Shown here: one piece after another, positions 57,808-58,561 of the stretch
How positions within the stretch are numbered: position 1 is the stretch's first letter
Layout of the letters: each line of letters starts with the position of its first letter
Assembly (NCBI RefSeq): GCF_003334255.1
Contig: NZ_QOWU01000009.1
DNA from: Escherichia coli
Lineage (GTDB): Bacteria; Pseudomonadota; Gammaproteobacteria; Enterobacterales; Enterobacteriaceae
DNA: 64,000 bases
Direction: 5' to 3' (one strand)
The notes under the pieces: model-generated
Databases searched by the model: none
Told to the model about the DNA's origin: nothing
What the model saw: the letters and a program-made list of their open reading frames with translations, nothing else
Made by a program: the position numbers and the translations under genes

Positions 57808-58083
57808 TCATGCATACAGTATCGCCTGTACGCGCCAGTTATCAGGCTGCTGGTCTTCGTACATGGTAATAATGCGGTACCATGACGCACCTTGTTCATC
57901 GGCCTTTAACGCCACGATACGTTCCACGTCCTGCGGATCCCCTGAAATATTGCTAACTGAGATCTGACCTATTTCATTCAGGCCCGTCACGCAGTCAGCA
58001 CTGGCGAATTCTGCAGACTGTGCCGTGGCGCTCGCAGGATAAGTCACTAATTGCAGCGAGGGTGAGGCAAGTAATTGTTTCAT
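57808..58083 (-). CDS. yjfN: Small periplasmic stress-family protein YjfN (DUF1471/YhcN-like)
   Basis: Track ORF trimmed to MKQLLASPSLQLVTYPASA (91 aa); signal peptide; C-terminal QAILYA. Confidence 0.8.
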   Translation of the reverse strand: MKQLLASPSLQLVTYPASATAQSAEFASADCVTGLNEIGQISVSNISGDPQDVERIVALKADEQGASWYRIITMYEDQQPDNWRVQAILYA

Positions 58084-58231
58084 CGTCAGCTCCATTTTTC
58101 GTTTCCCCACATGTTGCAGGGCATTCCATCGCGGTAATAAACGCCCAGGCTTCCAGCCGGTAATTTATTGTGCACAGGTAAACGCATAGGGACGCAAAGC
58201 AATGTAAAGCTGACTATGTAAGTTGTCTGAT

Positions 58232-58561
58232 TTATTTACGGTACAAAATGGCTTGTGAATACCACTGTCCTGTCACGATGGTTTCGTCCACCATGACGAC
58301 AACGTAATAATCAGCTTTTGCAGCGACAGCTTTCGCTTTGATTTCTGCTAATGCGTCATCCGGAGAACCCCGAACCATCGTGCTTACGCTACCTATTCGC
58401 TGTAACCCTTGCGTCTGGTCGCGGCGAATCTCTTGCGGATGGTCCGTTACTGGCGGTGCTGGCTGTGGCGTACCTTGCAGTGCGCTACAGGCACTTAACA
58501 TCAACACCAATAATAAACTGGCAAACCGGTAAATAACGCTATTACGTTTCCTGCTAACCAT
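58232..58561 (-). CDS. bsmA: Biofilm stress and motility lipoprotein BsmA (YjfO)
   Basis: Track ORF 142 aa trimmed to MVSRKRNSVIYRFASLLLVLMLSACS (109 aa); lipobox LSAC; C-terminal QAILYRK. Confidence 0.8.
   Translation of the reverse strand: MVSRKRNSVIYRFASLLLVLMLSACSALQGTPQPAPPVTDHPQEIRRDQTQGLQRIGSVSTMVRGSPDDALAEIKAKAVAAKADYYVVVMVDETIVTGQWYSQAILYRK

What the first reader, a model, noticed from the sequence alone, without database searches (positions are those of the whole stretch)
57808..58561. Adjacent same-strand small envelope proteins yjfN and bsmA share a C-terminal QAILY motif
Both ORFs encode about 90 to 110-aa secreted or lipoprotein-type proteins (YjfN with signal peptide, BsmA with lipobox LSAC) and end in near-identical ...QAILYA and ...QAILYRK, consistent with tandem paralogues of the YhcN/DUF1471 stress-protein family. 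They are separated by a 148-bp spacer, so they may be regulated independently.
Basis: partly seen in the sequence, partly recalled or inferred. Interest (0 to 1): 0.3.

Follow-up and report, generated by a model that had tools for sequence, protein, structure and literature searches.

The report
Known adjacent paralogues yjfN and bsmA
Two neighbouring small cell-envelope genes of E. coli, yjfN and bsmA, are old diverged copies of one gene family (DUF1471), and both this and their adjacency are already annotated and published, so the finding is correct but ordinary.

Summary
On the minus strand, yjfN (57808-58083, 91 aa) and bsmA (58232-58561, 109 aa) are separated by 148 bp and end in QAILYA and QAILYRK. 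The window is E. coli chromosome, and both proteins are identical to the K-12 versions.

The similarity goes well beyond the pentapeptide. Both match Pfam PF07338 (DUF1471/YdgH-BhsA-like) over the whole domain. With the tail removed, the alignment still beats 5000 of 5000 shuffles (z = 7.1).

A-x-[IL]-Y is the family-wide last strand. The exact QAILY form is found only in the YjfN and BsmA subfamilies, which are each other's best profile partners, although YhcN ties for YjfN.

The order yjfP-bsmA-yjfN-aidB is conserved in eight genera. Four other Enterobacterales genera carry only bsmA there, which suggests yjfN is the derived copy.

According to the literature, YjfN is a Cpx-regulon periplasmic DegP "suicide activator" that acts through its C-terminal Ala. 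BsmA is a lipoprotein with its own sigma-S promoter. I also found a CpxR-like box in the spacer that is conserved in six genera.

RefSeq annotates both genes, and Eletsky et al. 2014 noted the adjacency. The verdict is already known and of low interest.

The parts
57808..58083 (-). yjfN: 91-aa DUF1471 protein. It has a signal-peptide-like N-terminus (MKQLLASPSLQLVTYPASATA|QS) and one PF07338 domain (residues 35-90), and ends in QAILYA.
   Evidence: ORF and sequence. Identical to K-12 b4188. Pfam E = 3e-17. RefSeq product 'DUF1471 family protease activator YjfN'. GGAG Shine-Dalgarno 6 nt before the ATG, invariant in 6 genera.
58232..58561 (-). bsmA (yjfO): 109-aa DUF1471 lipoprotein. It has lipobox LSAC (Cys25, with Ser at +2), a Pro-rich linker and one PF07338 domain (residues 53-108), and ends in QAILYRK.
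   Evidence: ORF and sequence. Identical to K-12 b4189. Pfam E = 1.2e-15. NCBIfam equivalog NF011433 scores 153 bits against a cutoff of 100. A lipobox is present in the intact full-length BsmA-like proteins of Yersinia, Rouxiella, Pantoea, Pectobacterium, Edaphovirga and Nissabacter.
58084..58231 (-). 148-bp bsmA-yjfN spacer holding the presumed yjfN promoter and 5' UTR. No convincing intrinsic terminator was found.
   Evidence: Sequence. The consensus scan finds no terminator on the gene strand. The RNA fold is unremarkable, z = -1.56. The spacer is 124-148 bp in five other Enterobacteriaceae genera and contains one strongly conserved block.
58194..58208 (+). CpxR-like box GCAAAGCAATGTAAA, one mismatch to GTAAA-N5-GTAAA. 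On the gene strand it reads TTTACATTGCTTTGC.
   Evidence: Pattern match. It sits in the most conserved block of the 6-genus spacer alignment. A box with at most one mismatch is present in the spacer of all five other Enterobacteriaceae loci and absent from the Edaphovirga and Nissabacter spacers. CpxR binding is inferred, not shown.
58167..58176 (-). Conserved TGTGCACAAT, a candidate -10 region (CACAAT) for yjfN lying 21 nt downstream of the CpxR-like box.
   Evidence: Conserved in the 6-genus alignment: identical in four genera, with one substitution each in Klebsiella and Enterobacter. The strict sigma-70 consensus scan did not call it. The assignment is an inference.
58562..58742 (.). Divergent bsmA / yjfP intergenic region containing bsmA's own promoter.
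   Evidence: Coordinates. E-sigma-S ChIP-seq peak, gel shift and KMnO4 open-complex mapping at the bsmA promoter are reported in PMC4447067.
57749..57782 (-). Single REP element (GCCGGATGCGGCGCGAGCGCCTTGTCCGGCCTAC) between the convergent stops of yjfN and aidB. It probably forms the 3' stem-loop of both transcripts.
   Evidence: Read directly from the sequence. The match to the REP consensus is from my own knowledge. It was not tested further.

Best explanation
yjfN and bsmA are ancient, strongly diverged tandem duplicates of one DUF1471 (YhcN/BhsA-family) gene.

Shared motif: QAILY is the last beta-strand of the shared small alpha+beta domain. The A-x-[IL]-Y part is family-wide. The Q and the I are shared only by these two subfamilies.

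Divergence in location, tail and control:
- BsmA kept or acquired a lipobox and a Pro-rich tether. It is predicted to be an outer-membrane lipoprotein, ends in basic residues like the rest of the family, and is transcribed from its own sigma-S-recognised promoter.
- YjfN is a soluble periplasmic copy whose chain ends one residue after the conserved Tyr, in a small non-basic residue (Ala). According to published work, that residue lets it bind and activate the protease DegP while being degraded itself. It belongs to the Cpx envelope-stress regulon.
- yjfN is probably driven by a promoter with a CpxR-like box inside the 148-bp spacer.

Direction of the duplication: the lipoprotein gene alone occupies the yjfP-aidB slot in several other Enterobacterales families, so yjfN is most likely the derived copy.

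Shown here: homology, family membership, motif distribution, synteny and the conserved spacer block.

Taken from the literature: DegP activation, Cpx and sigma-S control.

Inferred: the direction of the duplication, CpxR binding at the box, and outer-membrane sorting of BsmA.
For: Homology: Pfam PF07338 matches over the full domain for both proteins. BLASTP E = 1e-6. z = 7.1 with 0 of 5000 shuffles after removing the tail.

Motif: in the alignment of all 12 E. coli DUF1471 domains, A and Y of the tail are invariant, and the other domains read [ST]A-x-[IL]-Y-[KR]. Among the 132 single-domain family representatives, QA[IL][IL]Y occurs only in YjfN-like and BsmA-like clusters.

Sister relationship:
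- BsmA's best E. coli paralogue is YjfN (75 against 52 for the next).
- E. coli YjfN scores 108-122 against Edaphovirga, Rouxiella and Pantoea BsmA, against 93 for YhcN.
- hhalign subfamily profiles give BsmA to YjfN 95 against 70 for the next. For YjfN, BsmA scores 95.6 and YhcN 95.0.
- In the NJ tree the BsmA clade has 94.5% support, the YjfN clade 97%, and the two join at 47.5%.

Age: all five QAILY codons differ at synonymous sites, and no DNA-level repeat links the two genes.

Synteny: yjfP-bsmA-yjfN-aidB is found in Salmonella, Citrobacter, Klebsiella, Edaphovirga and Nissabacter. In Enterobacter and Kosakonia a chemoreceptor gene replaces aidB downstream. Only bsmA is present in Rouxiella, Yersinia, Pantoea and Pectobacterium.

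Tail specialisation: in 100 intact YjfN orthologue clusters, the residue after the Tyr is A (90), V (9) or T (1) and never K or R.

Function and regulation from papers: YjfN activates DegP and DegQ, acts through its C-terminal Ala, and belongs to the Cpx regulon/iModulon without bsmA. bsmA has a sigma-S promoter.

Spacer: the conserved TTTACATTGCTTTGC...TGTGCACAAT block is present in 6 genera.
Against: - The sister grouping has only 47.5% bootstrap on 64 columns.
- Within E. coli, YjfN scores higher with YhcN (93) than with BsmA (75), and the profile scores tie.
- 'yjfN is the derived copy' could equally be an old pair followed by repeated loss of yjfN. Two Yersiniaceae-like genera (Edaphovirga, Nissabacter) have the pair, while Yersinia and Rouxiella do not.
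- A CpxR ChIP-exo study under ethanol stress found no direct CpxR peak at yjfN and placed it in a 'cross-regulatory' class.
- The CpxR pattern alone is not enriched in the window, with 5 matches found against 3.3 expected.
- No terminator was found after bsmA, so some read-through co-transcription cannot be excluded.
Confidence: 0.8

Rival explanations
1. The two genes belong to the same family but are not each other's duplicates. YjfN derives from a YhcN-like gene and came to lie next to bsmA by rearrangement. The shared Q and I in QAILY are convergent or chance.
For: Within E. coli, YjfN scores higher with YhcN (93) than with BsmA (75). NCBIfam scores for YjfN are YhcN 51.8 bits and BsmA 51.0 bits. 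hhalign ties at 95.6 against 95.0. Bootstrap for the YjfN+BsmA clade is only 47.5%.
Against: - BsmA's best partner is clearly YjfN in every comparison.
- E. coli YjfN scores 108-122 against the Edaphovirga, Rouxiella and Pantoea BsmA orthologues, higher than against YhcN.
- QA[IL][IL]Y is restricted to these two clades.
- Adjacency in the same order and orientation is conserved across eight genera in at least two families.
- YhcN scores highly with nearly every subfamily, which fits a slowly evolving, central sequence rather than a specific relationship.
Confidence: 0.15
2. bsmA and yjfN form one operon, transcribed together from the bsmA promoter. The spacer is only a processed intercistronic region.
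For: The genes share a strand and lie 148 bp apart. No intrinsic terminator is detectable after bsmA. In Nissabacter the spacer is only 39 bp, which looks operonic.
Against: - yjfN, but not bsmA, appears in the Cpx regulon/iModulon and is induced with degP.
- bsmA has a sigma-S promoter and is reported separately.
- The spacer contains a block conserved in six genera, with a CpxR-like box 21 nt upstream of a -10-like CACAAT. A neutral intercistronic spacer would not be expected to keep such a block.
Confidence: 0.12
3. The shared C-terminal pentapeptide is a functional motif common to both proteins, for example a shared partner-binding tag, rather than simply the last structural strand of the fold.
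For: The exact QAILY form is conserved in both subfamilies across genera. The C-terminus of YjfN is functionally important for DegP activation.
Against: - The A-x-[IL]-Y core is invariant or near-invariant in all 12 E. coli DUF1471 domains, including the internal domains of YdgH. There it is followed by more polypeptide and cannot act as a C-terminal tag.
- It lies at the end of the Pfam domain model.
- According to the literature, the residue critical for DegP is the terminal Ala, which BsmA lacks.
Confidence: 0.07

Closest known systems
DUF1471 / YhcN / YdgH-BhsA-McbA-like family (Pfam PF07338). The ten E. coli paralogues are YahO, RclB, YbiJ, McbA, BhsA, YdgH, YhcN, YjfN, BsmA and YjfY.
   Same: Both proteins carry one complete domain with the family's conserved G-x-[IV]-S, K-A-x-x-x-G-A and A-x-[IL]-Y elements. 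Both are small and envelope-targeted, and both are reported as stress-linked in the literature. A profile of the family finds the solved structures 4EVU, 2M2J, 2NOC, 2MA4, 2MA8 and 2JNA.
   Different: Nothing places them outside the family. BsmA is its most divergent E. coli member and the only lipoprotein among the ten. YjfN is the only E. coli member that does not end in a basic residue.
YjfN as characterised: 'suicide activator' of DegP (Kim et al. 2018, J Bacteriol 200:e00519-17). It is used as a DegP/DegQ activator in bioRxiv 10.1101/2024.12.25.630354.
   Same: The window's protein is identical to K-12 YjfN. The terminal small or hydrophobic residue is conserved in 100 of 100 intact orthologue clusters.
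   Different: None. It is the same protein. I could not read the primary paper, so its claims are taken from citing papers.
BsmA/YjfO as characterised: biofilm stress and motility protein (Weber et al. 2010, Microbiology 156:139). NCBIfam equivalog NF011433.
   Same: The sequence is identical to K-12 BsmA and scores 153 bits against a cutoff of 100.
   Different: None. The molecular mechanism remains unknown in the literature I could reach. The primary paper is not held.
Other adjacent or fused DUF1471 copies: Salmonella yhcN next to a ycfR-like gene, and the three-domain YdgH/SssB (Eletsky et al. 2014, PMC4092069).
   Same: They show the same pattern of family growth by local duplication. That paper explicitly lists yjfN/yjfO as an example.
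   Different: Here the two copies differ in targeting signal (lipobox against signal peptidase I type) and in C-terminal chemistry.
RcsF, an outer-membrane lipoprotein stress sensor and the closest structural relative of the DUF1471 fold according to PMC4092069 and PMC12096828.
   Same: It is a small alpha+beta envelope domain. Like BsmA, it is lipid-anchored through a flexible N-terminal linker.
   Different: There is no detectable sequence relationship here. RcsF has redox-active disulfides that DUF1471 proteins lack. Any functional analogy for BsmA is speculation.

Membership tests
Pfam PF07338 (DUF1471 / YdgH-BhsA-McbA-like) | Significant match to the family HMM across the whole ~55-residue domain | tested here: met
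   YjfN residues 35-90 match model positions 1-54 of 55, E = 3e-17. BsmA residues 53-108 match model positions 1-55 of 55, E = 1.2e-15.
Pfam PF07338 (DUF1471 / YdgH-BhsA-McbA-like) | Conserved C-terminal strand A-x-[IL]-Y at or next to the protein end | tested here: met
   A and Y are invariant across all 12 E. coli domains. Both proteins have A-I-L-Y.
Pfam PF07338 (DUF1471 / YdgH-BhsA-McbA-like) | N-terminal export signal (periplasmic or envelope location) | tested here: inconclusive
   BsmA has a clear lipoprotein signal with lipobox LSAC. YjfN has K2, an A-T-A|Q site and the same length as orthologue signals, but a weak hydrophobic core, with a KD 9-mer maximum of 1.19 against about 2.0-2.4. 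No signal-peptide predictor was available. The literature calls it periplasmic.
Pfam PF07338 (DUF1471 / YdgH-BhsA-McbA-like) | Mixed alpha+beta DUF1471 fold | not tested
   No structure was predicted. A family profile that includes both proteins hits the solved DUF1471 structures 4EVU, 2M2J, 2NOC, 2MA4, 2MA8 and 2JNA at E = 8e-24 to 4e-8.
BsmA equivalog (NCBIfam NF011433) | Whole-protein score above the curated cutoff (100 bits) | tested here: met
   BsmA scores 153.3 bits. YjfN scores 51 bits, below the cutoff, so it is not a BsmA orthologue.
Bacterial lipoproteins (for BsmA) | Lipobox [LVI][ASTVI][GAS]C after a basic n-region and a hydrophobic h-region | tested here: met
   The N-terminus is MVSRKRNSVIYRFASLLLVLM-LSAC. 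A lipobox is present in the intact full-length BsmA-like proteins of six other genera. Acylation itself cannot be tested here.
YjfN protease-activator subfamily | Orthology to E. coli K-12 YjfN | tested here: met
   The sequence is identical to b4188. RefSeq names it 'DUF1471 family protease activator YjfN'.
YjfN protease-activator subfamily | Small or hydrophobic C-terminal residue needed for DegP activation | tested here: met
   The protein ends in Ala. Across 100 intact orthologue clusters the end is A in 90, V in 9 and T in 1.
Cpx regulon (for yjfN) | CpxR~P binding site GTAAA-N5-GTAAA upstream, and Cpx-dependent induction | tested here: inconclusive
   A one-mismatch box at 58194-58208 is conserved in six genera. 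Induction is reported in the literature, but a ChIP-exo study saw no direct peak.
Tandem duplicates (sister paralogues) | Each is the other's closest paralogue, with conserved adjacency | tested here: inconclusive
   Adjacency is conserved in eight genera. BsmA to YjfN is clearly the best match. YjfN to BsmA ties with YhcN. NJ bootstrap is 47.5%.

The most novel reading that the evidence does not exclude
The lipoprotein gene bsmA is the ancestral occupant of the yjfP-aidB slot across Enterobacterales, and yjfN arose from it by tandem duplication. The downstream copy then lost the lipobox and tether. In the Enterobacteriaceae lineage it swapped the family's basic C-terminus for a terminal Ala and gained a Cpx-responsive promoter with a CpxR box in class-II-like position.

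This would be a traceable, stepwise case of a structural envelope protein turning into a stress-induced, self-consumed activator of the DegP protease. Edaphovirga and Nissabacter would be intermediates: they have the pair, but their YjfN-like protein ends in Tyr-Arg and no CpxR-like box is present.

A corollary is that BsmA may act on outer-membrane or protease partners in an RcsF-like or YjfN-like way.
Probability: 0.35. Interest if true: 0.3.

Novelty: already known. Interest (0 to 1): 0.1.

Why it matters
For genome annotation it matters little, because both genes, their family and their adjacency are already on record.

The modest value lies in the contrast between the copies. The same small domain is lipid-anchored with a basic end in one gene. 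In the next gene it is soluble, ends in Ala, and serves as a Cpx-induced activator and substrate of DegP.

That makes the pair a compact natural experiment on how one terminal residue and a promoter change can re-purpose a DUF1471 domain. It also gives a concrete hypothesis for the still unknown mechanism of BsmA and the other paralogues. The conserved CpxR-like box offers a simple test of whether Cpx control of yjfN is direct, which a published ChIP-exo study left open.

Tried and rejected
- **Terminator after bsmA.** The consensus scan found none on the gene strand, and the spacer RNA fold is no better than shuffles (z = -1.56). There is no evidence either way for termination.
- **Strict sigma-70 promoter scan of 57600-58800.** It gave zero hits, so the CACAAT assignment rests only on conservation.
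- **Conserved hairpin in the yjfN 5' UTR (GCCC...GGGG).** RNAalifold gives -1.9 kcal/mol with five pairs and no compensatory change. Rejected as a structured element.
- **Residual DNA-level duplication between the genes.** Only 10-14-nt chance repeats were found.
- **Direct sequence search of YjfN and BsmA against PDB.** Only marginal hits were returned (E of 0.1 or worse for DUF1471 entries, plus a spurious uL13 hit). A family profile was needed.
- **Rfam.** Nothing was found in or near the locus.
- **Primary papers.** Weber 2010 and Kim 2018 are not held, so their content is cited second-hand.
- **First bootstrap run.** The Biopython NJ bootstrap timed out and was replaced by my own NJ implementation.
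- **Searches deliberately not run.** The answer did not depend on them.

Full report
**What is there**

The window is E. coli chromosome. The 1.2-kb stretch around the finding is 100% identical to many strains and is present in 5425 of 5426 complete genomes. RefSeq annotates it as aidB, yjfN ('DUF1471 family protease activator YjfN'), bsmA ('biofilm peroxide resistance protein BsmA') and yjfP.

Both genes are on the minus strand. yjfN is 57808-58083 (91 aa) and bsmA is 58232-58561 (109 aa). The spacer 58084-58231 is 148 bp. Both translations are identical to the K-12 proteins.

The proteins end in ...NWRVQAILYA and ...QWYSQAILYRK. BsmA has a basic n-region, a hydrophobic core and the lipobox LSAC, with Cys25 and Ser at +2. 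YjfN has MKQLLASPSLQLVTYPASATA|QS.

**Is it more than chance?**

- BLASTP aligns 87 residues at 30% identity, E = 1e-6.
- Smith-Waterman scores of the mature proteins give z = 11.7 against shuffles.
- With everything from QAILY onward deleted, z is still 7.1 and 0 of 5000 shuffles reach the score.
- Both proteins match Pfam PF07338 (YdgH/BhsA/McbA-like, formerly DUF1471) across the entire model, with E = 3e-17 and 1.2e-15.
- BsmA passes the curated NCBIfam BsmA equivalog at 153 bits against a cutoff of 100. YjfN scores 51 bits on that model and 51.8 on the YhcN model.

**What the QAILY motif is**

I extracted all ten E. coli K-12 DUF1471 proteins, twelve domains in total because YdgH has three, and aligned them.

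The Ala and Tyr of the tail are invariant, and the position between them and the Tyr is always I or L. The other domains read [ST]-A-x-[IL]-Y-[KR]. QAILY is therefore the family's last conserved strand, and three of its five residues carry no pair-specific information.

The Q and the first I are pair-specific. Among the 132 single-domain proteins in the best 150 of 511 family representatives from an exhaustive profile search, QA[IL][IL]Y appears only in clusters that classify as YjfN-like or BsmA-like.

At the DNA level the five codons are CAG GCG ATA CTG TAT in yjfN and CAA GCC ATT TTG TAC in bsmA. They differ at every third position. No nucleotide repeat links the genes. The duplication is therefore old, and the identity is maintained by selection on the protein.

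**Are they tandem paralogues?**

| Test | Result |
|---|---|
| Pairwise, within E. coli | BsmA's best paralogue is YjfN (75; next 52). YjfN's best is YhcN (93), then BsmA (75). |
| E. coli YjfN against other genera's BsmA | 108-122 against Edaphovirga, Rouxiella and Pantoea (but 92 for Yersinia and 84 for Pectobacterium), against 93 for YhcN |
| BsmA-like representative clusters | The second-best E. coli paralogue is YjfN for 11 of 13 |
| Subfamily profiles (hhalign) | BsmA to YjfN 95 (next 70). For YjfN, BsmA 95.6 and YhcN 95.0. |
| NJ tree, 99 domains, 64 columns | BsmA clade 94.5%, strict YjfN clade 97%, the two joined as sisters at 47.5% bootstrap |

E. coli BsmA is a fast-evolving sequence, which explains its lower within-species score to YjfN. 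The sister relationship is the best-supported topology but is not robust on so short a domain.

Synteny adds independent support.

- The order yjfP-bsmA-yjfN-aidB, in the same orientation, is found in Salmonella, Citrobacter rodentium, Klebsiella, Edaphovirga and Nissabacter. Enterobacter hormaechei and Kosakonia have yjfP-bsmA-yjfN followed by a chemoreceptor gene in place of aidB.
- Rouxiella, Yersinia and Pantoea have only the lipoprotein gene next to aidB, and Pectobacterium has only bsmA nearby.
- The YjfN-like proteins of Edaphovirga and Nissabacter resemble E. coli YjfN (156 and 141) more than their own neighbours (133 and 95). The pair therefore reflects one old duplication and not repeated local ones.

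The simplest reading is that bsmA is the ancestral occupant and yjfN the derived copy. An old pair followed by several losses of yjfN is not excluded.

**How the two differ and probably work**

In the intact full-length BsmA-like proteins I examined from other genera, BsmA has a lipobox, a Pro-rich tether (T-P-x-P-P-P-x-P), an A-Q-E-[IV]-x-R-x-Q segment and then the domain. The non-Asp residue at +2 predicts Lol sorting to the outer membrane. That rule comes from established knowledge and was not tested here.

YjfN orthologues have a signal peptidase I type signal. In 100 of 100 intact clusters they end one residue after the Tyr, in A (90), V (9) or T (1), and never in K or R.

From papers:
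- YjfN is an activator and substrate ('suicide activator') of DegP, and its C-terminal Ala is the residue used to engage DegP (Kim et al. 2018 as cited).
- In vitro, DegP and DegQ degrade CsgA only when YjfN is present.
- yjfN overexpression suppresses protein-folding defects.
- BsmA affects biofilm and peroxide stress by an unknown mechanism.

The informative feature is thus the difference that follows the shared motif, not the motif itself.

**Regulation**

- bsmA has an E-sigma-S-bound promoter in the bsmA-yjfP intergenic region, mapped by ChIP-seq, gel shift and KMnO4 footprinting (PMC4447067).
- yjfN, without bsmA, is in the CpxR iModulon and is listed as Cpx-regulated in E. coli and Salmonella.

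In the spacer I found GCAAAGCAATGTAAA at 58194-58208. On the gene strand it reads TTTACATTGCTTTGC, one mismatch from the CpxR consensus. The pattern alone is not enriched in the window, with 5 matches found against 3.3 expected.

However, it lies in the one strongly conserved block of a six-genus spacer alignment. It is followed 21 nt later by a conserved TGTGCACAAT. A box with at most one mismatch is present in all five other Enterobacteriaceae spacers and in neither the Edaphovirga nor the Nissabacter spacer. In Nissabacter the spacer is only 39 bp.

Direct CpxR binding remains an inference. One ChIP-exo study saw no peak at yjfN under ethanol stress. No terminator is detectable after bsmA, so some read-through is possible.

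**Comparison with what is known, and novelty**

Both genes are named and annotated. The family, its ten E. coli paralogues and its fold are described. Eletsky et al. 2014 (PMC4092069) explicitly cite adjacent yjfN and yjfO as evidence of expansion by gene duplication. The finding is therefore already known.

- QAILY is a marker of the two-subfamily clade, built on a family-wide strand.
- bsmA-only loci exist in other Enterobacterales families.
- The terminal non-basic residue is universal in YjfN orthologues.
- A conserved CpxR-like box sits in the spacer.

Interest is low, at about 0.1.

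Noticed in passing
window 57749-57782: A single REP-type palindrome (minus strand GCCGGATGCGGCGCGAGCGCCTTGTCCGGCCTAC) fills most of the gap between the convergent stop codons of aidB (57691) and yjfN (57808). It probably serves as the 3' stem-loop for both transcripts.
   Followed up: no
window 58021-58083 (YjfN residues 1-21): The E. coli YjfN signal peptide (MKQLLASPSLQLVTYPASATA) has among the weakest hydrophobic cores of the orthologue signals examined. Its Kyte-Doolittle 9-mer maximum is 1.19, against about 2.0-2.4 in Salmonella, Citrobacter and Enterobacter and 2.0-3.4 in the other E. coli DUF1471 proteins. Export efficiency or route may differ in E. coli.
   Followed up: partly
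outside the window; L002 12517-12792 (K-12 4424516-4424791): A third DUF1471 gene, yjfY, lies on the same strand 8.5 kb beyond bsmA, separated from it by yjfP and the ula operon. In Yersinia a YjfY-like gene (38% identity, E = 2e-17) sits directly beside yjfP (L015 1652-1927), and Klebsiella also has a DUF1471 gene there. The three genes may be remnants of one old local cluster that the ula genes split in E. coli.
   Followed up: partly
L009 1416-2209 and L011 502-1125: Edaphovirga and Nissabacter have the bsmA-yjfN pair, but their YjfN-like proteins end in Tyr-Arg like the rest of the family, and their spacers lack a CpxR-like box. In Nissabacter the spacer is only 39 bp. They may represent an intermediate state before the DegP-activator features arose.
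   Followed up: partly
L016 3001-3327 (Pantoea BsmA): Pantoea BsmA orthologues carry an 8-9-residue extension after the conserved ...AILY (for example GASPAAGARQ), unlike all other BsmA or YjfN sequences seen. The gene also overlaps the end of aidB by 27 nt.
   Followed up: no
window 18602-18648 (+): Rfam finds a Guanidine-II (mini-ykkC) riboswitch aptamer at 50.4 bits against a gathering score of 32. This is probably the known element upstream of the gdx/sugE guanidinium exporter gene (from memory; the neighbouring genes were not checked).
   Followed up: no
window 34151-34447 (+) and 4345-4417 (-): Three identical-scoring tandem tRNA genes are spaced 112 nt apart, and one further tRNA lies on the minus strand. 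These are ordinary E. coli tRNA loci.
   Followed up: no
window 58085-58110: The yjfN reading frame is open for 9 further codons upstream to a GTG (MGKRKMELT-MKQ...). Some database entries start at MELTMK. The invariant GGAG lying 6 nt before the annotated ATG in six genera supports the annotated start.
   Followed up: partly
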